This document shows positions 1,790 through 12,649 of a stretch of 19,446 nt of DNA, piece by piece. The stretch spans positions 16,229 to 35,674 of the forward strand of contig JBHLQM010000027.1 in the NCBI GenBank assembly GCA_048884785.1, written 5' to 3'. Numbering within the stretch: position 1 is the first letter of the stretch; the number at the start of each line of letters is the position of its first letter. A program made the position numbers and the translations under genes. Under the pieces are notes generated by a model, which saw only the letters and a list, made by a program, of their open reading frames with translations, was not told where the DNA came from and ran no database searches. This stretch comes from Candidatus Thorarchaeota archaeon (lineage in GTDB: Archaea > Asgardarchaeota > Thorarchaeia > Thorarchaeales > Thorarchaeaceae).

Positions 1790-2515
1790 ATGAAACTGGC
1801 AAAGAAGATATTTGGAATGGCACGCTCCGAGGGAAGGTCCTTTGTCCTTGAGAATGAAGCAAAGGACATCATGAGAGAATACGGTCTGAATATTCCAGCA
1901 TATGCCACCGCAGCTACTCCTGAGGATGCTGTGAGAGAGTCTGCCAAGATTGGCTATCCTGTTGTGCTGAAAATTCTCTCAAAGGATATCCTCCATAAGT
2001 CAGATGCGGGAGGAGTCAAGCTAAATCTAAAGAACGATGCTGAAGTGAAAAAGGCATTCAGTGAGATTATGCAGAATGCAAAGAAATACGGCGAAGAGCA
2101 TGGTGTTGCAGTTGATTTGAGCCGAGGTGTCTTCATTACTGAGTTCGCAGAAATGGGAACGGAGGTCATTGTCGGGGTAACCAAGGACCCACAATTTGGA
2201 CATGCCATTATGTTTGGTCTGGGAGGCATATTTGTTGAAGTGCTGAAAGATGTCACCTTCAGATTAATACCTCTGACGGAAAATGATGCACGTGAAATGG
2301 TGAGCGAGATCAAGGCCGCAAAGATCTTGGACGGAGTAAGGGGACAGGGGCCACGAGATATTGACGCACTTGTCGACGTAATACTTGGTGTTTCGAAAAT
2401 GGTTTCTGAGAATCCAGAGATAATTGAACTTGACTGTAATCCAACCTTTGTCTATGAACGTGGAAAGGGTGCAGTGGTTGTGGATGCTAGGATCCTGATT
2501 GATACTAGCCATTAA
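1790..2515 (+). CDS. acdB: Acetate/acyl-CoA ligase (ADP-forming), beta subunit (ATP-grasp)
   Basis: GYPVVLKI, ILHKSDAGGV (second catalytic His), DPQFGHAIMFGLGGIFVEVLKDV, ELDCNP, VDARI. Lies directly after acdA. Confidence 0.94.
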   Translation: MKLAKKIFGMARSEGRSFVLENEAKDIMREYGLNIPAYATAATPEDAVRESAKIGYPVVLKILSKDILHKSDAGGVKLNLKNDAEVKKAFSEIMQNAKKYGEEHGVAVDLSRGVFITEFAEMGTEVIVGVTKDPQFGHAIMFGLGGIFVEVLKDVTFRLIPLTENDAREMVSEIKAAKILDGVRGQGPRDIDALVDVILGVSKMVSENPEIIELDCNPTFVYERGKGAVVVDARILIDTSH

Positions 2516-3698
2516 CTAGATGGTCTACAAGAACAAGACCTCTCATGATATCAGAATCATTGAGTTGACCTGGAGTTATTTTTGTGCCAGCGGAAATCAA
2601 TAGAAGCAACGAAATGACTCTGGGTACCAAACGTGAATTCTGAAGCAAAAACTCCCTGTTTCCAGCCGCATCAATAACATATCCCTCAATCCTTCGAGTG
2701 AGGAGAGAAATATGCTCGTTTAGACCCTCAGAAGGCTTCAACTGTTTGAAGAGGCGTACTACGGATTCCTCGTTGTTGAAACTATCGGGAGAGAAACCAA
2801 CACTCTCGAGTTGCTTTATTGAATCCAACGTGAACATTTCATAGTCTTCCTCTTCTATACGTTTCTTCTCTTTTCCTACACTTTGAAGCTGTGCCAGCAA
2901 GCGAAGGGAATTTGTCAAAATAGAGCGAGATGCGGCTGGACTAGAGGGAGTTAGTTGCGTTAGAAAAGAACCATGTTGTTCTTCAAGATGTGCTGCCATT
3001 GAAGAGCTAATTTGACGTTCAAATCCAGGAGAGAACGCAACGACCGCGGCATTGAGCAATTTTGAACTGGCACCAATGCGACGGCTTGCAACAAGTGCTC
3101 TGAAGTCTTCAATTGAAATGTAAAATAATAGGATTCTGATTACATCATATGCTCTCTCGAAATCCGCCTCATTGGTTGAAGACCGGCCTTCATTCCTGCA
3201 AATCAGGGCACTGAGTAATTTCCATGCTGATGATAGAGAATCACATAGTTCATTTCTAAGCCTCGATTCTGCTACTCCTTGCTCATCCAGAAACCGCTTT
3301 AGTTTCTCTTCGGCCGCATTGACTCTGTTCAGAGTTGATATATCAAGTGTGATATCAGTGACTGATTTCATGAATTCTCTCGGTTCACGTATTCTTGGTC
3401 GAAGAACTAGTGCAGGTTCTTTTCTATCGATAATCCACCATTTTGTTGTGGAAGATACCTGATCAAGCATGTCAATCGCAATCGTCAGATCGGCTCTTCC
3501 AACCACAAAACGTGAGTCAAGATAAGCAACAAGACGAGAGATGAGACCTATAAAGTGAGAGAGATGAATGGAAAGACTCTTACTTTCGAAGGCATAGCTT
3601 GAAAATCGTCCTACAAACTGACGGACTTCTTCCTGAATATCATCACCAAGACGTGTCTGAGTAAGCGCACGATAGACGTCAATTGGTGTTCTCGCCAT
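2505..3698 (-). CDS. Hypothetical all-helical protein with four apparent AAA-lid/histone-fold-like repeats
   Basis: 397-aa ORF with ATG start and a TTATATAA element upstream (3773-3780). Its 3' end overlaps acdB convergently. No Walker motifs seen. The repeat call is by eye. Confidence 0.75.
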   Translation of the reverse strand: MARTPIDVYRALTQTRLGDDIQEEVRQFVGRFSSYAFESKSLSIHLSHFIGLISRLVAYLDSRFVVGRADLTIAIDMLDQVSSTTKWWIIDRKEPALVLRPRIREPREFMKSVTDITLDISTLNRVNAAEEKLKRFLDEQGVAESRLRNELCDSLSSAWKLLSALICRNEGRSSTNEADFERAYDVIRILLFYISIEDFRALVASRRIGASSKLLNAAVVAFSPGFERQISSSMAAHLEEQHGSFLTQLTPSSPAASRSILTNSLRLLAQLQSVGKEKKRIEEEDYEMFTLDSIKQLESVGFSPDSFNNEESVVRLFKQLKPSEGLNEHISLLTRRIEGYVIDAAGNREFLLQNSRLVPRVISLLLLISAGTKITPGQLNDSDIMRGLVLVDHLVNG

Positions 3699-3808: not shown

Positions 3809-4576
3809 CTATTTCCCAAAACGGCGAGATCTCTTCTGGTATGACCGTAAAGCGCGCCAAATATCAATTCGACGCACAGCTGGCCAATATACTTGCTCAA
3901 AATATAGTTCCGAGTAAGCAGATTGCCAGAGCAAGAATCCCGATAGCCTCTCCTCACCAGATGTACGTATGATTAAGTCTGGATCTGGAATGTCCTTTGT
4001 ATAGAGATGGTCTTCTATTAGATCCTCGTTAATGCCATCAGGCTGAAGAATACCATCCTGAATCTTGTGACTAATTGCCTTCACTGCATCAACAAGCTCA
4101 GTTCTGCCAGAGTAGCCAACTGCAATATTAAGAGAATAATCACTGTATTCTTTGGTCTCCTCTTCAGCAGCATGAATTGCCTCTTGGAGCTTCTCAGGCA
4201 AAATGTCGATCCGTCCTATGGCCTGTATGCGTACCTTGTGTTTTCGTACATCGGGATTGCCAATCACTTCAGCGAACTTGCTTTCCAGAATGCCCATGAT
4301 CTCCTCGACTTCTTCACGTGAGCGTTGAAAATTCTCAATAGAGAATGCATAGAGAGTGCATACCTTGACGCCAGCCTCCCAGAGAATCCGGAGGACCTCC
4401 ATTACCTTCTGGGCTCCGGCCCGATGGCCATACCAAGGTATTTCCAAGCCCTGTATTCTGGCGTATCGTCTGTTGCCATCAAGTATCAATCCTATATGTC
4501 GAGGGTTCTTACTCTCATCAAGCTGTCTATGCAACCACCACTCATAGAGTCGATATACAGGACCTGCAATATTCAA
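3809..4576 (-). CDS. uppS: cis-prenyltransferase (polyprenyl diphosphate synthase, UppS family)
   Basis: PRHIGLILDGNRRYA, GH..G, TLYAFSIENFQRS..EV, AVGYSGR.E, PDPDLIIRTSGEERLSGFLLWQSAYSELYF, C-terminal RRFG. TTG start. Confidence 0.97.
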   Translation of the reverse strand: MNIAGPVYRLYEWWLHRQLDESKNPRHIGLILDGNRRYARIQGLEIPWYGHRAGAQKVMEVLRILWEAGVKVCTLYAFSIENFQRSREEVEEIMGILESKFAEVIGNPDVRKHKVRIQAIGRIDILPEKLQEAIHAAEEETKEYSDYSLNIAVGYSGRTELVDAVKAISHKIQDGILQPDGINEDLIEDHLYTKDIPDPDLIIRTSGEERLSGFLLWQSAYSELYFEQVYWPAVRRIDIWRALRSYQKRSRRFGK

Positions 4577-4638
4577 CGGATCACACTACCTCATACTCGG
4601 AGATCTCGTGGGTGTAATTGGACCCACATCATTTGAGA

Positions 4639-5010
4639 TCAAATCATCTCTGCTATCTTATCAGCCGCTCGTTTCATGTCAAGGAAGACCAGGCCCAGCT
4701 TGGCTTGGTCAGTTGTAGATACCGTGAGGCAAGCGTTTAGTCCTGCCTGAATTGCAAGTAGCCATCCATTGTCACCCTTGATAATCACCTGTTCCAGCGC
4801 ACCTTTCCCAAGCTCAATTGCCGCCTTTTCTCCTAGGGTGAGCATTGCTGCAGTCATTGCTGCGACCTTCGCCTCGTCAACTTCATTGGGGAGGGCAGAT
4901 ACAATCGGAAGTCCTTCTACGCTAACTATCGCACATGCCTCTATCTCAGGGATGCTGCCTTGGAGCTCATTGAGAACTCCTTCCAGTGTATCACCGCGTG
5001 TCTGACTCAT
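4639..5010 (-). CDS. Roadblock/LC7 domain protein (MglB-like, likely GAP partner of the adjacent GTPase)
   Basis: Roadblock pattern IEACAIVSVEGLPIVSAL...VAAMTAAMLTLGEKAAIELGKGALEQVIIKGDNG...AKLGLVFLDMKR. ORF track starts at 5022; ATG at 5010 after GGTGAGG is preferred. Closely follows the GTPase stop at 5027. Confidence 0.92.
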   Translation of the reverse strand: MSQTRGDTLEGVLNELQGSIPEIEACAIVSVEGLPIVSALPNEVDEAKVAAMTAAMLTLGEKAAIELGKGALEQVIIKGDNGWLLAIQAGLNACLTVSTTDQAKLGLVFLDMKRAADKIAEMI

Positions 5011-5026
5011 TGACCTCACCATAGGT

Positions 5027-5590
5027 TCATTTGTACATACGTTTAAGGATTACCTCTCTGGCTATTGCTTGGAATGCTCTTTTAACTCCAACCCCTTGCA
5101 CTGCGATGGTCTCGTAGATTGGGACATTACTGCCAAGACCAAGGAGATCAAGCATCTCGTCTCTAGACATTCGATTTGGCAGGTCTCGTTTGTTTAGCAT
5201 GACCACTATTGGTATATTGCGACCAAGTTCATCTCCGAGGAACAACTTCAGTTCCTCAAAACTCTCCGTGTTCTCCTCCCGTTGGTCCGGTGATGAGTCG
5301 GCTACAAAGAGCAAGCCGTCTGTGCCTTGAAGCACTACTTTTCTCTGGTGGCGGTGTCGCTTCTGACCGGCTACTGTGAACACATCGAATAGAACACGAC
5401 CGCCCGCGCTCATCGGTACATAGTCAAAGAACAGTGTTCGATTCGTTTCATCTTCGATAGCTGTGAACTCACCTTTCTGGAGGCCTTCTACTTTTCCATA
5501 GAGCCATCTCAGAGCAGTGGTTTTACCACCGAGGGATGGCCCATAGAAGACCAGCTTAAGATGAATGCGTCCTTTGTCATCCTTACGCAC
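5027..5590 (-). CDS. mglA: MglA-family small Ras-like GTPase
   Basis: G1 GPSLGGKTT; switch I ETNRTLFFDYVP (MglA signature RTLFFDF with the intrinsic Arg); G3 TVAGQ (MglA TVPGQ instead of DxxG); GTDGLLFVADS; G4 NKRD; G5 TIAVQGVGV. GTG start after GAGGTG. Confidence 0.92.
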   Translation of the reverse strand: MRKDDKGRIHLKLVFYGPSLGGKTTALRWLYGKVEGLQKGEFTAIEDETNRTLFFDYVPMSAGGRVLFDVFTVAGQKRHRHQRKVVLQGTDGLLFVADSSPDQREENTESFEELKLFLGDELGRNIPIVVMLNKRDLPNRMSRDEMLDLLGLGSNVPIYETIAVQGVGVKRAFQAIAREVILKRMYK

Positions 5591-5610
5591 GATTATAGCA
5601 CCTCATTGAG

Positions 5611-5704
5611 TCACAGCTGACCCCGGTCGTAGTTGGCATGGCGAAGACCGACGACCTGCGTGGGTCTCAGGCCCTGCATCGGGAGGTTGAGTGTGTTAAA
5701 AAGC
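5611..5704 (-). promoter_or_regulatory. Putative internal promoter (TTTTTAAC) and GC-rich structured 5' leader of the GTPase gene
   Basis: TATA-like element at about 5695-5704 on the minus strand. 5611-5690 is 64% GC (51/80, hand count), with paired segments GGTCGT 5625-5630/ACGACC 5651-5656 and GACCC 5619-5623/GGGTC 5662-5666. Confidence 0.4.
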
Positions 5705-5763
5705 TAGTCTCATAAAAGCATTGCTTGAGCATACACAGGGATAGTAGCGGGTCTTTTATGGGA

Positions 5764-6225
5764 TTAGACACGCTCGAGCTCTGCGAGGGCTGACTTCAGG
5801 TCTTCCTCATCAAGCTCATCCTTGCCTGGAGATGGTTCGACTGCCAGGAACTTATCGAGCTCTTCAGCAAGCTGTACACCCTGCTTCCTCATCACAAGAC
5901 GGATCATACCGATATTGACCTCTGCTTCAGATACAACACAGAGGACGCCCTTTCCACATGCAGACGCGAATATCTTGCCCTCTGAGAACTCTGAAGTCAC
6001 TATCTCAAGCTCGCCGATCTGAAGGTTCTTACCCTGTTCTTCGCTGGCGCAGAATACAGCACTCGCGATTGCCCCGATACTATCAGTGTCTACGGCATAG
6101 TAGGACAGCTTTGACACGTTTGCAATTGTGAGGCCTGTCTTATCGACAAGAATCACTTTCTTGATTCCCTTGTCCTGCCTAATGATATCAGTCAGTATTC
6201 GATCAAATGCTTTTGGATCACTCAT
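5764..6225 (-). CDS. Roadblock/LC7 domain protein with acidic C-terminal helix extension (MglB-like)
   Basis: IKKVILVDKTGLTIA...IGAIASAVFCASEEQGKNLQIGELEIVTSEFSEGKIF...NIGMIRLVMRK, then a linker and ELDEEDLKSALAELERV. GGAG SD site upstream of ATG. Confidence 0.9.
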   Translation of the reverse strand: MSDPKAFDRILTDIIRQDKGIKKVILVDKTGLTIANVSKLSYYAVDTDSIGAIASAVFCASEEQGKNLQIGELEIVTSEFSEGKIFASACGKGVLCVVSEAEVNIGMIRLVMRKQGVQLAEELDKFLAVEPSPGKDELDEEDLKSALAELERV

Positions 6226-6237
6226 GATAGTATCTCC

Positions 6238-6537
6238 TTATTCATTGTTCTTTAGGACCACTAGGATAAGTCCTTCCTTTGGTTCCGGGGCGATATTAAT
6301 CTGCCCACGACTGGTGTCGAGGGTCAGAAACGACAGCGTCCCCTCCTTTAGTTCGCGAACGGCATCCATTGCCTTGCCAACCAAGGAGGTTATGATAGCA
6401 GCGACGATTTCTGTAGTTTCGGGGTCAATATCGCTACTGAGGGGTAGTCCTTCCATTGTGGTAACGACTACTCCGCGGACACCTTCTTGTGCCCTCAGTC
6501 GCTTAAGAATTGCTTGAAGTTTTTCTTGACTTATCAA
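6238..6537 (-). CDS. Short Roadblock/LC7 protein resembling dynein light chain roadblock type (no C-terminal alpha3 helix)
   Basis: [32 protein letters not shown]...KAMDAVRE...LSFL...INIAP...LVVLKN. The ORF track's first 36 aa (from 6645) look non-coding. TTG at 6537 after GCGGGGA gives 99 aa. Confidence 0.9.
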
Positions 6538-6679
6538 ACTTGGGAATCCCCGCTGCTGTCTTGTGCAATTCGCAAATCTTACCACTCTGGAGAGTATTTT
6601 AGAGTTGTGGAGATGTGCTACGCGCAGATAGGTGATTTTGCGCATTTTGTTATAATCTTGTATTCTCCGTGTATGTATG

Positions 6680-6723
6680 AAAAAAGGATTGGATAGCGCA
6701 ATAATCGACCTTACGCGCTATCC
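6680..6723 (-). terminator. Hairpin plus oligo-T terminator downstream of the Sec23/24-like gene
   Basis: Perfect 9-bp inverted repeat GGATAGCGC (6691-6699)/GCGCTATCC (6715-6723), followed on the minus strand by AATCC-TTTTTT, starting 10 nt after the stop codon. Confidence 0.7.
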
Positions 6724-6733
6724 TGAGCGAAGA

Positions 6734-8368
6734 TTACTCTTCTTCTTCTTCTTCAAACATCTGTTTGGAACTCTTCCGCATCTGGGCAAGACCTTTGGTA
6801 AACGCCTCATCTGCTGCTGCAGAGGGAGCGCCTGATGGGGCCTCCTCCATCATCTGATCGAGCTGCTCCATCTCATTCTCTTCAGCCCTTAGTGCGTCTT
6901 CCACCATTTCGTATTTTGCCTGTGCAGGTTTTGGCGCTGCTTTGGCATATTCTTTCATTGCGGACCTAAAGGCAGCAATGCGCTTCCTGCCCTTCTTTCT
7001 ACCCTCAGCTCCTTCAGCAAATGACTCCTCACCAGCTTTCTGTGTAACAAAGGTTGCTCCAAGCGTTGGGTCTAGGGTATCCATGACCTCCTCCTCCTTC
7101 TTGGCAACCTTGAGCGTGGCGGTGACCGCACGGATTCTTCGAGCACCCTCCTCGTCTGTGTATGTAACTTGAACCTGAATGGGTACCTCATCTTCTTTGA
7201 TTTCCTTCTCAGGTTCAACTTCAAAGTAGAGCTCATGGTTCTCTCCGACCACTCCGATTTTGCTCTCCTTCCTCTTGGTCAGCTCTTCTATGACGGTGCG
7301 GGATACGCCCGATGCATCTTTTACCTTGACTCCCTTAGGAGTCACAAGCCTTACTTCCACATCGCGTCCAAGCAGACTTGCGCCAGCAAGTTCTGAGATA
7401 CTCTTGTCCAGTTCATTGGGCGTGACATAGTACATCTGGCCTCCTGTAGCCTCTGGTAGTAGACCCAAGGTCTTCAGTTCCATACCAGCACCTGATGCGA
7501 TTCCAACAACATCGACCGAAGTTCCGAATTCGAGAAACTTGCGGCCCATCTCTTCATAGAAGGCTCCTGCAGGAGTGACCTGATATCCCTCAAGAGCCCC
7601 AATTCCTTCGTTAGCAAGTCCATCAGTCAAGAGGACTACTCGTCCTACATTGCGGTGCTTAGCAACAACTGACGCCATTGCGACTGCAGGACCCAGAGCT
7701 GTGCCACCTTGATCTCGTAGAGAAGCGACGTGACTCTTGAGTCTATCAGCATTCTTGCCAACATGTACGAGTTTGATTTTGTCTAGCAATTTCTTTGTAG
7801 CATTGACAATGTTATCATAGCTTGGAAATGACTCATGTGGGAGCTGTATTTCATTCCCCGTTTCCAAATCTCTATAGAGCACGCTGCTCTCAAACTCGAC
7901 CAGCCCAAACTGTGTATCGGGTGCATTTGCAGCCAAGCTCTCAATAGATGTAGTTAGACTTCGCTTGACAGCGGATAGATTTGCTCCAGCCATTGAACCT
8001 GATACGTCTATGAGCGCTAGGAATGACCTTCCACCCGTGGAGATGGTCCCAGTTTCAGTTTCAGTTTTGACAGGAGGAGGCTTGATTAGAAAGTCCCCAT
8101 CGTCTCCAGCAAGAACGACTTCTCCTCCTATAATGTTCAAGGTTCCACAGAACGCACAGTGGAAAAATTTTCCAACTTTATTGTTTTCTTCCACTTGCTC
8201 TACACTCATCAGAAAGCCGCCACATTTCTGGCATGCAATAGGCTTTCCTATAATCTTCGTTACATCCTTTGCGAGGTCTCCAAAACCAATTCGCAGGACA
8301 TACGGAATATCGCTCATCAGCTTCTTTGATGCTGGAAAAGCCTCTGAGCTCGTTCTTAACATAGGCAT
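6734..8368 (-). CDS. Sec23/Sec24-like protein (Zn finger + vWA trunk + beta-sandwich + short helical region)
   Basis: Zn finger PIACQKCGGFL...FHCAFCGTLN; vWA with DVSGS, GGTALGPA, RVVLLTDG, FYEEMG...SVDV, TGGQMYY; beta-sandwich VEVRLVTPKGVKV...G, LYFEV, IQVQVTYTDEEGARRIRAVT (Sec23/24 consensus as recalled: Q...Y....G.RRIRV.T). ATG at 8368 follows GGAGGT; ORF track start is 8398. Confidence 0.85.
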   Translation of the reverse strand: MPMLRTSSEAFPASKKLMSDIPYVLRIGFGDLAKDVTKIIGKPIACQKCGGFLMSVEQVEENNKVGKFFHCAFCGTLNIIGGEVVLAGDDGDFLIKPPPVKTETETGTISTGGRSFLALIDVSGSMAGANLSAVKRSLTTSIESLAANAPDTQFGLVEFESSVLYRDLETGNEIQLPHESFPSYDNIVNATKKLLDKIKLVHVGKNADRLKSHVASLRDQGGTALGPAVAMASVVAKHRNVGRVVLLTDGLANEGIGALEGYQVTPAGAFYEEMGRKFLEFGTSVDVVGIASGAGMELKTLGLLPEATGGQMYYVTPNELDKSISELAGASLLGRDVEVRLVTPKGVKVKDASGVSRTVIEELTKRKESKIGVVGENHELYFEVEPEKEIKEDEVPIQVQVTYTDEEGARRIRAVTATLKVAKKEEEVMDTLDPTLGATFVTQKAGEESFAEGAEGRKKGRKRIAAFRSAMKEYAKAAPKPAQAKYEMVEDALRAEENEMEQLDQMMEEAPSGAPSAAADEAFTKGLAQMRKSSKQMFEEEEEE

Positions 8369-8505
8369 GCAATTATACCTCCAAAAACTTGCGGCCACTC
8401 ATGCATGAAAGGTATTAAGTAGTTCGACGATGAAACTCGGGAACGAACAACATTTAAACAGGAGGGCGTTTAGAGGAAAAGCAGTACTCCCTAAGGTGAT
8501 AATAG

Positions 8506-8871
8506 ATGGTTGACCAGACAAAAATCAAGGGTATTGTCAGTGACACAATGGCTGCAAACGCAGACATTGAAGGAATAATTGTATGTGATTCGAAAGGGCA
8601 GGTAATATTCGGTCACACACTATCTGATGGTATCAAGCATGACGATGTTGCCAAGCTTGTTGTCAAAATCTCGGCGAATTCGTCCTCGCTCACTTCTGGC
8701 ATCGACAAGGGAGGACTCAAGGAGGTCAGCATTGCTGCTGATGACGGATTTATCGTTATCCTCGGGGATGTTAAAATGGTGCTTGCGGGAATTGCGGGCG
8801 AGGGTTCCCGGGAACAGATGGGATTAATTCGCATGGCACTAAGGCGTGCGCTCCTCTCCATGATTAGCTAG
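8506..8871 (+). CDS. Roadblock/LC7 domain protein (fourth, divergently transcribed)
   Basis: IEGIIVCDSKGQVI...IDKGGLKEVSIAADDGFIVI...QMGLIRMALRR. SD AAGGTGA and a TATA-like TTTAAA at about 8453-8458; T-run after the stop (8897-8902). Confidence 0.82.
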   Translation: MVDQTKIKGIVSDTMAANADIEGIIVCDSKGQVIFGHTLSDGIKHDDVAKLVVKISANSSSLTSGIDKGGLKEVSIAADDGFIVILGDVKMVLAGIAGEGSREQMGLIRMALRRALLSMIS

Positions 8872-9058
8872 ACAAAAATATGCTTCAGCATTATCCTTTT
8901 TTACTCTTCAGAGGTTATTCCAGACTGTCTGAGGGTATACCTGGATATGATGTGGGTATTACCACAGTCATACCAACGGTATTTAGCACCGTGTATCCCC
9001 TCGGTATAATAGACGCGTCATGTGCTTTAAGGCATAAGTGAATCGGAAGGGATGCATC

Positions 9059-12000
9059 TTGGTCCATATTCAGAAGCTTGTATGCAAGGGCTTCAAGTCA
9101 TTTGGTCGAGATAGTGTCATAATTAGGATGAATCCTGGATTCACTTGTATTGTTGGACCCAATGGATCTGGAAAATCGAATGTAATTGATGCAATCCTTT
9201 TCGTCCTAGGACAGTTAAGTGCCAAGACCCTGAGGGCAAATGTATTCTCGGATCTTCTCTATTCGCCTCCGAAACCTGATATGCCTCCAAAGGCAAAGAA
9301 TGCGACTGTAGAGATTCATTTTGACAACAAGGATAGAAAGTTGCAGGTTGATGCAGACAAGGTAGTTGTCGAGAGAGAGCTTGATGATAATGGAAAATCG
9401 ACCTGTCGTGTCAATGGAAAGGTTGTTACTCGGACTGCCGTCCTAGATTTACTTGGGGGAATAGGAGTAGACCCTAATGGCTACAATCTGGTTCTTCAGG
9501 GCGAGATTGCACAGATGGTCAAAGTCAGCCCTATTGACAGACGAAAGCTCATTGAAGAGATAGCTGGAATATCTGCCTACGATGAACAAAAGGAACGTGC
9601 TCTCAAGAAGCTTGCAGAGAGCGAGAGCAATCTTGGCAAAGTAGAGACCCAGCTTATGGAGAGAAGAAGACAACTCGAAAAACTTGAGTTGGAGAGAGAG
9701 GATGCTCTTAGATACACACAGGCAAAGAGTGAGATTCAGAGAATAAAAGTAGACAGCGTTGCATGGTCTATTGTGAAAGGTCGAAGTAGGATTGTGGCCA
9801 TAAACGATACCCTCGCGGAGCGTGCTGCAGAGGCGGAAAGTCTGGTCAGAGAACTTGAAGAAATAGAAAAGAAACATGAAGAGATTGAAGCCGAGATTGA
9901 GAACATTGATGCTGAGATTGATCAGATAACCGGCGGGGACTCTGCCAGGATTTCTGAGGAATTTGGTATCGCATCAGCTGCGGTGAACCATGTTGATTCC
10001 AATCTCACTAGGGTCAAGGGTGAGTATGAGAAGATCATCCAACAGAAAAAAGACATTGAAGAACAGATATCGCTCGTTGGAAATCAGATCACAAGTGCCA
10101 AACAGAAGATTGAGGAAAAGGAAATTGAACTCTCTCAACTCGATAAGGAAATAGAAGAGTGTCAGAAAGATATAGCAAGACTTGAGGAGAGTTTTCAGAA
10201 GGAGCAATCAAATTACTATGAAACTGCACAGCGTCTGCAAGACCTGAACAATCAGATGCGCGCATTAGATGAGGGAGTATCTGAGGTCAGGTCTGCAATC
10301 AAATCCGATAACAAGGAATTAGGATTGGCATATGAGGACATTCAAGATGCTGAAAGCAGTCTCGCAAAAACCCAGGAAGAACTGGTAGAACTCGAGAGTT
10401 CCCTTCCGGAAAAAACGGGTTCACTAAAACAACAGGAGCAACTAGAGCAGTCCAAGGTACTAGAACTCGAAGAGATGGAAAGACGCCAAGAGAGAGTGGA
10501 TATAGAAGCAAGCGAAGCAGCAAGAATTGTCAGCGAAACAAGAGAAGAGCTGATTAGATTACAGGCCCGACGTGATGCCCTTAAAGATGCAGAAGAGGCA
10601 TTCCTGAAACGCCAAAAGGCCTTGTCAAGAGTTCTGGAACTTCGAGATTCAGGGGAGATTGAGGGAATTTACGGGACTGTTGCTGAACTGGGCAAAATTG
10701 ACCCTGAGTATTCAGTAGCAATGGAAGTCGCAGGGGGAAATAGGCTCTCTCATATTGTTGTAGACGATGAAGAAGTTGCTACTCAATGCATAAACATTCT
10801 CAAGAAAGAACGTGTGGGTCGTGCCTCATTCATTCCTCTCAATAAAATTAAGGCAAAAAGTCCAGGAAAACTTCCCTCAGATAGAAGGGTGCTTGGATTT
10901 GCGATAGACCTTGTTGAATTTGAGCCTAAGTTCAAACCGGCCTTTGAATTCGTCTTTCAGGATACTGTGATTACTGAGGATTTTGAAACGGCCAAACAAG
11001 TGGGATTCAGTCGATACCGAGCTGTTTCTCTTGAGGGCGATTTGGTTGAAAAATCAGGCCTTGTTACTGGAGGCCACTTTCAGCAGAGAGGTCCTGGTCT
11101 ATCTCTGCAGCTAGAAGATAATAGTGCAGAGATTGCGAACCGGCTGAAGGGCTTGGAGGAGATACTTGCTGATGTCCGAGAACAGCAGGAAGAAATACGT
11201 CAAAGAAGAAGAACCCTAGAGAAGGAAATCGAAAAACTGTCAAAGGAGAACTATAGAGGGCAGCTCGAAACAAAGCAGCTAGATGATCGTTTTCAAGAAA
11301 GAAAACTTAGGACTAGTGTACTTGCCGAAAAGATAACGACAACAAAGCAAACAATCGAAGCATTGGAGAGTCAAGTAAACGACCTAAGAGAGAGAGATGC
11401 CGAGCTCAGTGAGCATCGTGAAACCGTCAGGGCGTTACGAGATGAGGCAAATGAAGCGCTGGTAAAATCAGATGCAAACAAGATCAATCAAGATATCAAG
11501 GATTTGAAAGAGGTTCTTGAACATCATAGACGGGAACGAGAGGACTTAGTCAGCACGCTAACTGGTCTACAGGTTGCTCTTGATGAGAGGTTAGCGCCTA
11601 AGGACAAGGAACTACAGGATAGTCTTAGTAAACTCCTCGCAATTCTGCCTGGACAGAGTGAGGAGCTTGCCGAATTAGAGAGCGACTTCAGTGCGAAACA
11701 GGAAGAACTGGATAGGCTCAGATCTGAGAGAGCAAGAGTAGAAGATGCAGTCAAAGATAAACGAGTAAAACAGATGCAGCTTAAAGAGGACCTCCGAAAT
11801 GCTCGCTTCCGTCACGAGGAAATTCGAGAGTCTCAGACAAGCAATGAGAAGTCGGTGTACAGACTTCAGACTGAGCAATCTCGACTAGAGACGGATTTGG
11901 TTGCATTTACTGCAGAACTTGAGAATATGGCTGATGTTGAAAAAGAGATTGAAGACCGAGCTAGAAGAGAAGAGATAACATATCGCCAGATTGAGGAATT

Positions 12001-12649
12001 TGAGGAGAAGATAAAGGAACTAGAACGTGAACAGGAAGCTATTGGTGCAGTCAATTTGAAGTCACTTGACGATTATGATGTTGAGAAGGGCAGATATGAA
12101 GAGATTGTTGAGAAAAAGACCAAATTGGAGCAGGAGCACAAGGAGATAATTGCCTTTATGGAGGAGCTTGAAGCAGAGAAGACTCGCAAATTCCTTTTGG
12201 TCTACAACGAGATTGCCGATAATTTCTCCAAGGTGTTTGCTAAATTGTCACCCGAAGGAGAAGCAACCCTAATGCTAGAAAATCCAGAACACCCCTTGAT
12301 GGGAGGAATCACCGTCAGGTCTAAACCAAGGGGTAAAGAGCTTGTAACACTCGATGCAATGAGTGGTGGAGAAAAGACACTTACTGGCCTTGCTCTTATT
12401 TTTGCGATTCAGATGTACAACCCAGCTAGCTTCTACGTGTTTGATGAAATTGATGCGGCTCTGGATGATGTGAATGCTCATAATGTTGCGATGTTGATTT
12501 CTGAGATGGCCAAGTCATCTCAGTTCATTGTTGTTTCTCTCAGGGATACTACAGTCAGACAGGCAGACCTGCTCATTGGTATCTCAAATCAAGATGGTAT
12601 CTCAAAGATTGTCTCAGTAGATCTCGAGGAGGTTGAACAGGCAGCATGA
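9059..12649 (+). CDS. smc: Chromosome segregation ATPase SMC
   Basis: GFKSFG, Walker A GPNGSGKSN, Q-loop VLQG, long coiled coils, hinge (GIYGTVAEL, GRASFIPLNKI, G.VTGG), VNL.SLDDY, signature MSGGEK, Walker B/D-loop FDEIDAALD. TTG at 9059 preferred over GTG at 9038. Confidence 0.98.
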   Translation: MVHIQKLVCKGFKSFGRDSVIIRMNPGFTCIVGPNGSGKSNVIDAILFVLGQLSAKTLRANVFSDLLYSPPKPDMPPKAKNATVEIHFDNKDRKLQVDADKVVVERELDDNGKSTCRVNGKVVTRTAVLDLLGGIGVDPNGYNLVLQGEIAQMVKVSPIDRRKLIEEIAGISAYDEQKERALKKLAESESNLGKVETQLMERRRQLEKLELEREDALRYTQAKSEIQRIKVDSVAWSIVKGRSRIVAINDTLAERAAEAESLVRELEEIEKKHEEIEAEIENIDAEIDQITGGDSARISEEFGIASAAVNHVDSNLTRVKGEYEKIIQQKKDIEEQISLVGNQITSAKQKIEEKEIELSQLDKEIEECQKDIARLEESFQKEQSNYYETAQRLQDLNNQMRALDEGVSEVRSAIKSDNKELGLAYEDIQDAESSLAKTQEELVELESSLPEKTGSLKQQEQLEQSKVLELEEMERRQERVDIEASEAARIVSETREELIRLQARRDALKDAEEAFLKRQKALSRVLELRDSGEIEGIYGTVAELGKIDPEYSVAMEVAGGNRLSHIVVDDEEVATQCINILKKERVGRASFIPLNKIKAKSPGKLPSDRRVLGFAIDLVEFEPKFKPAFEFVFQDTVITEDFETAKQVGFSRYRAVSLEGDLVEKSGLVTGGHFQQRGPGLSLQLEDNSAEIANRLKGLEEILADVREQQEEIRQRRRTLEKEIEKLSKENYRGQLETKQLDDRFQERKLRTSVLAEKITTTKQTIEALESQVNDLRERDAELSEHRETVRALRDEANEALVKSDANKINQDIKDLKEVLEHHRREREDLVSTLTGLQVALDERLAPKDKELQDSLSKLLAILPGQSEELAELESDFSAKQEELDRLRSERARVEDAVKDKRVKQMQLKEDLRNARFRHEEIRESQTSNEKSVYRLQTEQSRLETDLVAFTAELENMADVEKEIEDRARREEITYRQIEEFEEKIKELEREQEAIGAVNLKSLDDYDVEKGRYEEIVEKKTKLEQEHKEIIAFMEELEAEKTRKFLLVYNEIADNFSKVFAKLSPEGEATLMLENPEHPLMGGITVRSKPRGKELVTLDAMSGGEKTLTGLALIFAIQMYNPASFYVFDEIDAALDDVNAHNVAMLISEMAKSSQFIVVSLRDTTVRQADLLIGISNQDGISKIVSVDLEEVEQAA

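What the first reader, a model, noticed from the sequence alone, without database searches (positions are those of the whole stretch)
6734..8368. Sec23/24-like protein that keeps a full MIDAS site but lacks the gelsolin (Arg-finger) domain
Seen: domain order Zn finger (CxxC...CxxC), vWA, beta-sandwich with GARRIRAVT, and a short helical region ending KQMFEEEEEE at about 544 aa. The MIDAS triad DVSGS / T (GGTAL) / D (LTDG) is intact. Established: eukaryotic Sec23/24 have an additional C-terminal gelsolin-like domain, where Sec23 carries the GAP arginine (yeast Arg722), and their MIDAS is degenerate. MglA GTPases supply their own catalytic Arg, retained here in NRTLFFD. Inference: this is an intermediate form that needs no Arg finger because the neighbouring GTPase has one in cis. 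It may bind ligands through metal-dependent MIDAS contacts; its own acidic tail or a roadblock tail is a possible ligand.
Basis: partly seen in the sequence, partly recalled or inferred. Interest (0 to 1): 0.75.

Follow-up and report, generated by a model that had tools for sequence, protein, structure and literature searches.

The report
Thorarchaeal Sec23/24-like MIDAS protein
This is the already described Thorarchaeota "Sec23/24-like" protein, whose lack of a gelsolin domain is published. New here are an invariant metal-binding site, closest eukaryotic relatives that are cpRAS-VWA proteins rather than COPII coat subunits, and evidence that the neighbouring MglA GTPase is a lineage-specific neighbour, not a shown partner.

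Summary
A 544-aa gene on the minus strand (6734-8368) encodes Cys4 Zn finger, vWA/trunk with a complete MIDAS, beta-sandwich and a roughly 115-residue helical domain, with no gelsolin fold. The AF2 model (pLDDT 88) matches Sec24A and Sec23A best (Z about 29-30). ArnB follows at Z 26.

The gene is the known Thorarchaeota Sec23/24 homologue. [quoted passage not shown]

Found here:
- The MIDAS and Zn cysteines are invariant across the Asgard family.
- The nearest eukaryotic sequence relatives are the cpRAS-VWA / Entamoeba-type ZnF-vWA proteins (194-282 bits, against 91 for Sec24). They also keep the MIDAS and show no gelsolin hit.
- The roadblock-MglA-roadblock cluster is conserved across Asgard families without this gene. 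The gene lies between two roadblock genes only in the Thor family, followed by a terminator-like hairpin.

So the reading "no Arg finger needed because MglA has its own" is not supported. A metal-dependent adaptor role is the best reading. The acidic tail is Thor-specific and so is not the conserved ligand.

An overlapping first-stage note on this stretch exists (e1-5663014); its follow-up was withheld.

The parts
6734..8368 (-). Sec23/24-like gene, 544 aa plus stop (stop codon 6734-6736)
   Evidence: ORF; translation; orthologues of 538-545 aa starting MPMLRTSS.
8377..8382 (-). GGAGGT Shine-Dalgarno-like motif ending 8 nt before ATG 8368
   Evidence: Read directly. It supports M11 of the long ORF as the start.
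8249..8368 (-). N-terminal strands (residues 1-40). By analogy with Sec23/24 they are taken to join the beta-sandwich (inference, not shown).
   Evidence: Model strands E4-6, E10-12, E23-28, E37-40. The region is aligned to the N-termini of Sec23A and Sec24A.
8129..8239 (-). Cys4 zinc finger (C46, C49, C71, C74)
   Evidence: Invariant in A1 and in 150 family members wherever aligned. Pfam zf-Sec23_Sec24 scores only E 0.053, below its cut-off.
8036..8080 (-). Low-confidence linker (residues 97-111)
   Evidence: pLDDT below 50 at residues 102-111.
7376..8035 (-). vWA / Sec23-24 trunk domain (residues 112-331)
   Evidence: Pfam Sec23_trunk 1e-10, VWA_2 and VWA; alpha/beta pattern in the model.
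7994..8008 (-). MIDAS motif DVSGS (D121, S123, S125)
   Evidence: Translation checked; invariant.
7700..7702 (-). MIDAS Thr (T223 in GGTALGP)
7622..7624 (-). MIDAS Asp (D249 in LLTDGLANEGIG)
   Evidence: In yeast Sec24 the aligned residue is Gly (VVSGT).
7100..7375 (-). Beta-sandwich (residues 332-423) with VPIQVQV and GARRIRAVT
   Evidence: Pfam Sec23_BS 35.2 bits, above 33.5; Q398, Q400 and R413 conserved.
6755..7099 (-). Helical domain (residues 424-538): helices 434-475, 480-509, 517-530, 534-538
   Evidence: Model. Between 484 and 503 of the 544 residues align to Sec23/24 and the alignment ends at Sec23A residue 624. No Pfam Sec23_helical hit.
6737..6754 (-). EEEEEE tail, specific to Thor-family relatives
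   Evidence: net charge over the last 12 residues is -1 to -7 in the six Thor-type rows; most other relatives are +4 to +8.
6680..6723 (-). Terminator-like GC-rich hairpin (6691-6723) followed by T6 (6680-6685), directly after the stop codon
   Evidence: dG -17.9 kcal/mol. A hairpin followed by a run of at least 5 T, with unrelated sequence, is seen after the orthologous gene in 8 of 21 Thor-family sequences (the window included).
6638..6644 (-). TGCGCAA core of a palindromic motif (TTGCGCAA / ATGCGCAAA) about 100 nt upstream of the next gene (roadblock a)
   Evidence: Found at -93 to -129 in 21 of 22 Thor-family loci, including G055, which lacks the Sec23/24-like gene at this site. Not found in 11 loci of other families.
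6238..6537 (-). Neighbour: short roadblock (RB_a), 99 aa from TTG
   Evidence: Pfam Robl_LC7 3e-16; orthologues of about 99 aa.
5764..6225 (-). Neighbour: roadblock RB_b with an acidic C-terminal helix
   Evidence: Pfam Robl_LC7 1.8e-10 and MAPKK1_Int (LAMTOR3) 30.8 bits, above 25.
5027..5590 (-). Neighbour: MglA-type small GTPase
   Evidence: PDB MglA E 1e-38; R51 nearly invariant and Q76 invariant.
4639..5022 (-). Neighbour: roadblock RB_c, 4 nt after mglA
   Evidence: Pfam Robl_LC7 1.5e-15.
8506..8871 (+). Neighbour: divergent roadblock-like RB_d
   Evidence: Pfam Robl_LC7 22.8 bits, just below the cut-off of 23. Conserved next to SMC across Asgard families.

Best explanation
The gene encodes the Thorarchaeota member of the Asgard 'Sec23/24-like' family. 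It is a soluble five-part protein: N-terminal strands, a Cys4 Zn finger, a vWA/trunk domain with a complete MIDAS, a beta-sandwich and a helical domain. This is the architecture of the Sec23/24 core and of the archaeal ArnA-ZnF/ArnB complex, but without the gelsolin domain.

Most likely it is a metal-dependent protein-protein adaptor. The MIDAS would hold Mg2+ or Mn2+ and complete the coordination sphere with an acidic (or possibly phosphorylated) side chain of a partner. The Zn finger, sandwich and helical domain would form a rigid platform. It is not a Sec23-type GAP.

It appears to be transcribed as its own unit. In the Thor family it lies at the head of an older roadblock-MglA-roadblock cluster, so coupling to that GTPase switch is possible but not shown.

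Shown: the architecture, the MIDAS invariance, the absence of gelsolin, the gene-order history and the sequence kinship to eukaryotic cpRAS-VWA proteins.

Inferred: metal binding, the adaptor role and any GTPase link.

My odds: identity about 0.95; MIDAS-dependent adaptor about 0.55; functional coupling to MglA/roadblocks about 0.25.
For: Pfam trunk and beta-sandwich hits above their cut-offs.

The family profile hits Sec24 at 6e-25 over Zn finger, trunk, sandwich and the start of the helical domain. ArnB is hit at 1e-12.

AF2 model: pLDDT 87.9, pTM 0.88. The top 46 Foldseek hits are all Sec23/24. VIA gives Z 29.7 for Sec24A (491 residues aligned), 29.3 for Sec23A and 25.9 for ArnB.

The MIDAS (D-x-S-G-S, T, D-G) and the four Cys are invariant in 33 sequences down to 23% identity. 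They are present in all tier-1 rows wherever aligned, and the full MIDAS is kept in 84 of 93 eukaryotic-type relatives. That is strong purifying selection on the metal site.

ArnB, the solved archaeal relative, holds a metal ion in the same MIDAS (PMC12852372).

A hairpin plus T-run follows the gene, and a conserved motif lies upstream of the next gene.

In eukaryotes the same module is fused to a Ras-type GTPase (PMC2430557). This gives independent support for some kind of small-GTPase link.
Against: No experiment on any Asgard member shows metal binding or a ligand.

PMC11914678 found only weak, nucleotide-independent co-precipitation of three Asgard Sec23-like proteins with one Asgard Arf in yeast.

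Neighbourhoods outside the Thor family are unrelated to each other and give no hint of a partner.

The terminator and promoter reading rests on sequence patterns alone; no RNA data were available.
Confidence: 0.6

Rival explanations
1. The protein is the effector or partner of the neighbouring MglA GTPase. It lacks gelsolin because MglA carries its own Arg finger, and its MIDAS binds its own acidic tail or that of a roadblock protein.
For: Same-strand adjacency to RB_a and RB_b, with MglA and RB_c further along, is kept in Thor-family loci from many genera even as protein identity falls to about 50% (MglA seen in 18 of 20 loci). MglA keeps R51 and Q76. Eukaryotic relatives are fused to a Ras-type GTPase. 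In one distant Asgard genome a small GTPase lies directly upstream (L033).
Against: The roadblock-MglA-roadblock cluster, with UPP synthase and SMC beside it in several loci, recurs across the other Asgard families sampled WITHOUT this gene. This includes G055 (same family) and G112 (same order). In 7 loci RB_a directly faces RB_d. MglA is in 146/151 genomes and in families where the gene was not found. Where both exist outside the Thor family they are unlinked. Housekeeping genes (SMC/ScpA, UPP synthase) are equally syntenic, so kept order is weak evidence here. A hairpin plus T-run separates the gene from RB_a. The acidic tail is not conserved, whereas the MIDAS is. MglA's known GAP is MglB, a roadblock protein.
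Confidence: 0.2
2. Proto-COPII coat subunit. The protein is recruited to membranes by an Asgard Arf/Sar-like GTPase and selects cargo or bends membrane, as a forerunner of Sec23/24.
For: The best structural matches are Sec24 and Sec23. This is the reading of PMC11914678, which calls these proteins precursors of the COPII inner coat. Most non-Thor members end in polybasic tails that could touch acidic lipids.
Against: No gelsolin domain and no Arg finger. Only one such gene in the genome, so no Sec23/Sec24 pair. By sequence the family is far closer to the non-coat cpRAS-VWA family (194-282 bits) than to Sec24 (91 bits) or Sec23 (43 bits). Those closer relatives keep the MIDAS, whereas the MIDAS Asp is Gly in the aligned yeast Sec24 sequence. 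PMC11914678 reports that the Sar1-contact residues are missing and binding was weak. The Thor tail is acidic, not basic.
Confidence: 0.12
3. ArnB-like signalling scaffold. Like Sulfolobus ArnA/ArnB, the ZnF-vWA-sandwich-helical unit is a phosphorylation-controlled regulator whose C-terminal region is a kinase target.
For: ArnB superposes at Z 25.9 with 368 of 381 residues aligned, and the PDB entry is titled as an archaeal orthologue of the Sec23/24 core motif. ArnB keeps a metal-occupied MIDAS and is regulated through Thr residues in its C-terminal domain. A conserved R-x-S motif lies near the C-terminus of the Asgard family.
Against: No FHA-domain or kinase gene was seen beside the gene in any of the 34 loci examined. 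The sequence match to ArnB covers only the MIDAS region. The R-x-S motif is only a majority consensus.
Confidence: 0.13

Closest known systems
Asgard 'Sec23/24-like' eukaryotic signature proteins. First reported in Thorarchaeota (cited in PMC7997004). Structure and domain analysis in PMC11914678 (Nat Commun 2025).
   Same: It is this family. One orthologue is annotated 'SEC24 family transport protein [Thorarchaeota SMTZ1-45]', 73% identical. [quoted passage not shown]
   Different: Nothing differs in kind. The searchable literature did not mention the invariant MIDAS, the cpRAS-VWA kinship or the history of the gene's position.
Eukaryotic COPII Sec24 and Sec23 (PDB 3EGD, 1M2V, 1M2O)
   Same: Zn finger, trunk, beta-sandwich and helical domain in the same order and spatial arrangement. 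Z 29-30 with 484-503 residues aligned. The RRIR and QxQ sandwich motifs are shared.
   Different: No gelsolin domain and hence no Arg finger. A complete MIDAS: yeast Sec24 has Gly at the D249 position and a shifted Thr. One gene rather than a Sec23/Sec24 pair. No long N-terminal extension.
Eukaryotic cpRAS-VWA proteins ('circularly permutated Ras protein 1') and their cpRAS-less relatives in Entamoeba, Dictyostelium and others (Elias & Novotny 2008, PMC2430557)
   Same: These are the closest eukaryotic sequence relatives. The Asgard-only HMM scores them at 194-282 bits over positions 20-530. hhalign gives E 1e-85 over 466 columns. They share the Cys4 finger, a MIDAS kept in 84 of 93 sequences and, in 20 proteins scanned, no gelsolin hit. 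Entamoeba P0160 is 547 aa with the same layout.
   Different: Many carry an N-terminal circularly permuted Ras domain, and some carry RING, Kelch or ankyrin domains. They form a separate side of the tree (SH-aLRT 100). No such type was found in 301 Asgard genomes. Their function is unknown.
Sulfolobus ArnB with the ArnA Zn finger (PDB 8S05, 5A8J)
   Same: vWA with a metal-occupied MIDAS, then beta-sandwich, then a C-terminal helical domain, with a Zn finger packed at the Sec23/24 position. Z 25.9.
   Different: In ArnA/B the Zn finger comes from a second protein that also has an FHA domain. Here it is fused. Sequence similarity is limited to the MIDAS region.
Generic prokaryotic vWA proteins (Catenulispora 4FX5; YfbK-like)
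   Same: vWA plus beta-sandwich core with a MIDAS. Z 21.9.
   Different: Clearly weaker match than Sec23/24 (Foldseek 3.6e-16 against 2e-28). 370 residues aligned against 484-503 for Sec23/24.

Membership tests
Sec23/Sec24 (COPII inner coat) | Sec23/24-type Cys4 zinc finger before the trunk | tested here: met
   C46, C49, C71 and C74 are invariant. The family profile aligns across the Sec24 finger. The single-sequence Pfam hit is only E 0.053.
Sec23/Sec24 (COPII inner coat) | Trunk (vWA-fold) domain | tested here: met
   PF04811, 42.1 bits against a cut-off of 27.
Sec23/Sec24 (COPII inner coat) | Beta-sandwich domain | tested here: met
   PF08033, 35.2 bits against a cut-off of 33.5.
Sec23/Sec24 (COPII inner coat) | Helical domain after the sandwich | tested here: inconclusive
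   No PF04815 hit in the protein or the genome. However, the model's helices 424-538 lie inside an alignment that runs to Sec23A residue 624, with 484-503 of 544 residues aligned. The domain was not folded and searched alone.
Sec23/Sec24 (COPII inner coat) | C-terminal gelsolin-like domain (in Sec23 it carries the catalytic Arg) | tested here: not met
   The protein ends at residue 544. No PF00626 hit. No strand after residue 422. Gelsolin-domain genes in the genome lie on other contigs.
Sec23/Sec24 (COPII inner coat) | Sec23/Sec24 paralogue pair forming a heterodimer | tested here: not met
   Only one PF04811 match in the 91%-complete genome. Dimerisation itself was not tested.
Sec23/Sec24 (COPII inner coat) | GTP-dependent binding of, and GAP activity on, Sar1/Arf-type GTPase | not testable with these tools
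   Biochemistry is needed. PMC11914678 reports weak, nucleotide-independent binding for three other Asgard members.
MIDAS-type vWA domains | DxSxS motif, a Thr, and an Asp in the LxTDG context | tested here: met
   D121, S123, S125, T223 and D249, invariant in the family. Metal occupancy was not tested.
Eukaryotic cpRAS-VWA family | ZnF-vWA-sandwich-helical module homologous over its full length | tested here: met
   194-282 bits over HMM positions 20-530. hhalign E 1e-85.
Eukaryotic cpRAS-VWA family | N-terminal circularly permuted Ras domain | tested here: not met
   No GTPase domain in the 544-aa protein. The Asgard rows form their own side of the tree.
ArnB-like archaeal vWA regulators | vWA(MIDAS) + beta-sandwich + C-terminal helical domain, with the Zn finger supplied in trans by an FHA protein | tested here: inconclusive
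   The fold matches at Z 25.9. The Zn finger is in cis, and no FHA gene was seen nearby.
MglA small GTPases (the neighbouring gene) | Close similarity to MglA, with the switch-I intrinsic Arg and the catalytic Gln | tested here: met
   E 1e-38 to M. xanthus MglA. NRTLFFD aligns to DRTLFFD. R51 is at least 90% conserved and Q76 is invariant.

The most novel reading that the evidence does not exclude
The Asgard 'Sec23/24-like' proteins are the direct counterparts of the little-studied eukaryotic cpRAS-VWA / ZnF-vWA family, a MIDAS-dependent module that works with a Ras-type GTPase. On this reading they are not proto-coat subunits. COPII Sec23/24 would be a faster-evolving offshoot that lost the MIDAS and gained gelsolin, and the presence of this gene in Asgard genomes would not be evidence for vesicle coats.
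Probability: 0.4. Interest if true: 0.6.

Novelty: already known. Interest (0 to 1): 0.4.

Why it matters
Sec23/24-like genes are often cited as evidence that Asgard archaea had forerunners of the COPII vesicle coat.

This follow-up shows that the family's conserved hallmark is a metal-binding MIDAS. In the one Sec24 sequence aligned here, the MIDAS Asp is replaced by Gly.

Its nearest eukaryotic relatives by sequence are cpRAS-VWA proteins of unknown function, not coat subunits.

The apparent operon with MglA in Thorarchaeota is a lineage-specific gene placement.

Together these points caution against reading the gene as a coat precursor or as an MglA effector. They also point to a concrete test, a MIDAS-dependent partner search, that could assign a function to the archaeal and the eukaryotic family at once.

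Tried and rejected
- Complex prediction of the Sec23/24-like protein (alignment A1) with MglA (A2), with GTP and Mg riding along. Verdict 'no answer', score 0.00 against a mark of 0.32. This is no evidence either way.
- Search for RNA runs holding 4600-8900: no RNA holder listed, only sediment and soil DNA metagenomes. Co-transcription could therefore not be examined, and read laying was not used.
The origin of the unnamed metagenomic tier-2 proteins (for example P0189, P0199) could not be checked.
- Search for longer, fused forms with the family profile ('longer', 1002-2860 aa). Only P0261 (module + Kelch + ankyrin) came back, and no form with a gelsolin domain. This is weak evidence, as the tool itself says.
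- Bona fide Sec23/24 sequences could not be obtained. The tree has no Sec23/24 rows and no outgroup, so bit scores against PDB chains were used instead.
- The 2017 Nature paper that first reported Thor Sec23/24 is not held. It is cited through PMC7997004.
It was folded separately.
- Considered and dropped: a trans-encoded gelsolin partner next to the gene. The gelsolin-domain genes are on other contigs.
Full report
**What is there**

The finding's coordinates hold a gene on the minus strand. The longest ORF is 6734-8398 from GTG. Orthologues begin MPMLRTSS, and a GGAGGT motif ends 8 nt before ATG 8368.

Named homologues all come from Candidatus Thorarchaeota MAGs. One is annotated 'SEC24 family transport protein [Thorarchaeota SMTZ1-45]'. 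The window lies on contig 27 of a 3.6-Mb genome that is 91% complete and has only this one Sec23_trunk match.

**Domain anatomy**

Pfam results:
- Sec23_trunk: 42 bits, cut-off 27.
- Sec23_BS: 35.2 bits, cut-off 33.5.
- VWA and VWA_2 hits.
- zf-Sec23_Sec24: sub-threshold, E 0.053.
- Gelsolin and Sec23_helical: no hit.

I aligned 33 family members that go down to 23% identity (A1). The invariant columns are:
- the four Zn cysteines (C46, C49, C71, C74);
- D121, S123, G124, S125;
- T223 in TALGP;
- D249-G250 in LTDG, followed by A-N-x-G-x-G.

The MIDAS is therefore intact and also among the most constrained features of the family.

The AF2 model built on this alignment is confident (pLDDT 87.9, pTM 0.88). 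After residue 422 it has helices only (434-475, 480-509, 517-530, 534-538).

Structure searches:
- The first 46 Foldseek ranks are all Sec23 or Sec24 chains, with E from 2e-28 to about 4e-24. A generic vWA protein (4FX5, 3.6e-16) and ArnB (8S05, 1.4e-14) follow.
- VIA-align gives Sec24A Z 29.7 (491 residues, model 1-544 on Sec24A 383-947). Sec23A scores Z 29.3 (model 1-544 on residues 13-624). ArnB scores Z 25.9.

The archaeal protein thus covers the Sec23/24 core and stops where the gelsolin domain begins.

Gelsolin-domain genes exist in this genome, but on other contigs.

**What is already known**

Thorarchaeal Sec23/24 homologues are an established eukaryotic signature protein (PMC7997004).

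PMC11914678 (Nat Commun 2025) states the following:
- They lack the Sar1-contact residues.
- Foldseek returns Sec23.
- Three such proteins bound an Asgard Arf only weakly and independently of nucleotide state.

PMC12852372 describes ArnA-ZnF/ArnB as the same core with a metal-occupied MIDAS. The headline of the finding is therefore not new.

In the searchable library I found no paper that notes the invariant MIDAS of the Asgard family or links the family to cpRAS proteins.

**Sequence kinship**

A full scan of 1.84 billion representatives returned 955 hits. About 45 Asgard orthologues come first. A second tier then follows at E 1e-34 to 1e-21.

All ten named members of that tier are eukaryotic:
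- 'circularly permutated Ras protein 1-like' proteins of echinoderms and nemerteans;
- cpRAS forms of Willaertia and Pyxidicula;
- proteins of Diphylleia and of a choanoflagellate;
- two Entamoeba invadens proteins of 520-547 aa without the Ras domain.

Pfam shows Ras + zf-Sec23_Sec24 + trunk (+ sandwich) in six of the 20 scanned, and no gelsolin in any of them. This is the cpRAS-VWA family of Elias & Novotny (PMC2430557).

Quantitative comparison:
- An HMM built from Asgard sequences only scores tier 2 at 194-282 bits over positions 20-530.
- The family profile scores the best Sec24 at 91 bits and Sec23A at 43 bits. That profile included one Entamoeba row.
- Profile against profile, the Asgard and tier-2 alignments give E 1e-85 over 466 columns.
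- The tier-2 profile scores Sec24A at only 60 bits.

Of 93 tier-2 sequences aligned at all five MIDAS positions, 84 keep D-S-S-T-D, and all keep the cysteines wherever aligned.

An unrooted ML tree (84 rows, LG+G4, quick search) splits cleanly into 33 Asgard rows and 51 tier-2 rows, with SH-aLRT 100.

A tier-2 query finds only the same single locus per genome in 301 Asgard genomes, at 22-33% identity.

So a MIDAS-bearing family, with no gelsolin hit in the members scanned, spans Asgard archaea and eukaryotes. COPII Sec23/24 is the more divergent relative. In the aligned yeast Sec24 sequence the Thr is displaced and the Asp is replaced by Gly, reading VVSGT against LLTDG.

I could not root the tree or include Sec23/24 rows, so the order of branching stays open.

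**The neighbourhood**

On the same strand, downstream of the gene, lie:
- RB_a (6238-6537);
- RB_b (5764-6225);
- MglA (5027-5590), which matches M. xanthus MglA at E 1e-38 and keeps R51 and Q76;
- RB_c (4639-5022);
- UPP synthase.

Upstream and divergent lie RB_d, SMC and ScpA.

Within the window's family this order is kept. In all 20 loci fetched, from many genera, RB_a and RB_b follow the gene. MglA is seen in 18 of the 20.

The same cluster is also found around MglA in 14 loci from other Asgard families, without the Sec23/24-like gene. RB_a is adjacent in 12 of them, and RB_a faces RB_d directly in 7. Two of these loci are close relatives of the window's genome: G055 (same family) and G112 (same order).

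In those lineages the Sec23/24-like gene lies elsewhere. Its neighbours there include a beta-lactamase-fold protein, a PhoU-like protein, a peroxiredoxin, FeoB and an AsnC regulator.

MglA was found in 146 of 151 sampled genomes. The Sec23/24-like gene was found in 116 of 301, and in none of the sampled members of several families that do have MglA.

The simplest reading is that the gene was placed between RB_a and RB_d in an ancestor of most of the Thor family. It has stayed there in a region whose order is very stable, even for unrelated housekeeping genes.

Two sequence features suggest the gene is its own transcription unit:
- A GC-rich hairpin with a T-run follows its stop codon. Hairpins with unrelated sequence, each followed by at least 5 T, are seen in 8 of 21 orthologous sequences, the window included.
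- A palindromic TTGCGCAA-type motif lies about 100 nt upstream of RB_a in 21 of 22 family loci. That count includes G055, where the gene is absent from this site.

**Consequences for the interpretation**

The idea that the protein can do without an Arg finger because its neighbour has one does not explain the family. Every member examined here has the same gelsolin-less layout, whatever its neighbours. MglA's established GAP is the roadblock protein MglB, and roadblock genes are in the cluster.

The acidic tail is confined to close Thor relatives. Net charge over the last 12 residues is -1 to -7 in the six Thor-type rows, while most other members are +4 to +8. The tail therefore cannot be the ligand for which the MIDAS is conserved.

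What remains well founded is that the MIDAS is under strong constraint. A metal-mediated contact with an acidic or phosphorylated side chain of some partner is thus the most likely core mechanism. This is supported by analogy with other MIDAS domains and by the metal seen in ArnB.

A link to small GTPases in general has independent support from the eukaryotic cpRAS fusions. One Asgard locus also has a GTPase directly upstream (L033). The specific link to MglA rests on lineage-restricted adjacency alone.

**Verdict**

- Observation: confirmed.
- Interpretation: partly supported. Identity, MIDAS and the absence of gelsolin are right. The causal story with MglA and the acidic tail is not supported.
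- Novelty: the object is already known.
- Interest: moderate, because these additions bear on how the gene is used in arguments about the origin of eukaryotes.

An overlapping first-stage note on 4639-8871 exists in the scan (e1-5663014); its follow-up was withheld.

Noticed in passing
window 3809-12649, and loci L086-L099: The block UPP synthase / RB_c / MglA / RB_b / RB_a, facing RB_d / SMC (/ScpA), recurs in whole or in large part around MglA in the Asgard families sampled. This includes the unrelated housekeeping genes. In this region, kept gene order alone is therefore weak evidence of a functional link.
   Followed up: yes
window 6638-6644 (minus strand), and the same place in L032, L036-L055, L095: A palindromic TTGCGCAA / ATGCGCAAA motif lies 93-129 nt upstream of the short roadblock gene in 21 of 22 Thor-family loci. 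It was not found in 11 loci of other families. It may be an operator or promoter element of the roadblock-MglA unit.
   Followed up: partly
window 6680-6723 (minus strand): A hairpin (dG -17.9) followed by T6 sits right after the Sec23/24-like stop codon. Orthologous loci have hairpins of different sequence followed by T-runs, as expected of a conserved terminator.
   Followed up: partly
C-termini of alignment A1: Tail charge flips within the family. Thor relatives end in acidic runs (EEEEEE, DEEDEE). Most other Asgard members, and Entamoeba P0160, end in polybasic runs such as KKKKKN or RKKK. A majority R-x-S motif precedes the tail.
   Followed up: partly
proteins P0259, P0261: Eukaryotic-type relatives carry further domains. 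The Willaertia protein is cpRAS + module + C-terminal RING. P0261 (metagenomic, 1089 aa) is module + Kelch + ankyrin repeats.
   Followed up: no
L033:6138-6809 (+), next to L033:6935-8599: In one distant Asgard genome (G030) a 223-aa Arf/Ras-like GTPase lies directly upstream of the Sec23/24-like gene on the same strand. This was not seen in three other genomes of that family.
   Followed up: partly
window 2505-3698 (minus strand): A 397-aa protein with no significant Pfam match (only Exo70_N at E 0.058) is conserved next to UPP synthase throughout the Thor family.
   Followed up: no
L050, L055, L042: The spacer between RB_b and mglA varies. It is about 170-1000 nt in most loci, 1.7-1.9 kb in two, and in G236 mglA is not within 4 kb. 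The Sec23/24-like gene with RB_a and RB_b is therefore the tighter unit, and mglA with RB_c is a second one.
   Followed up: no
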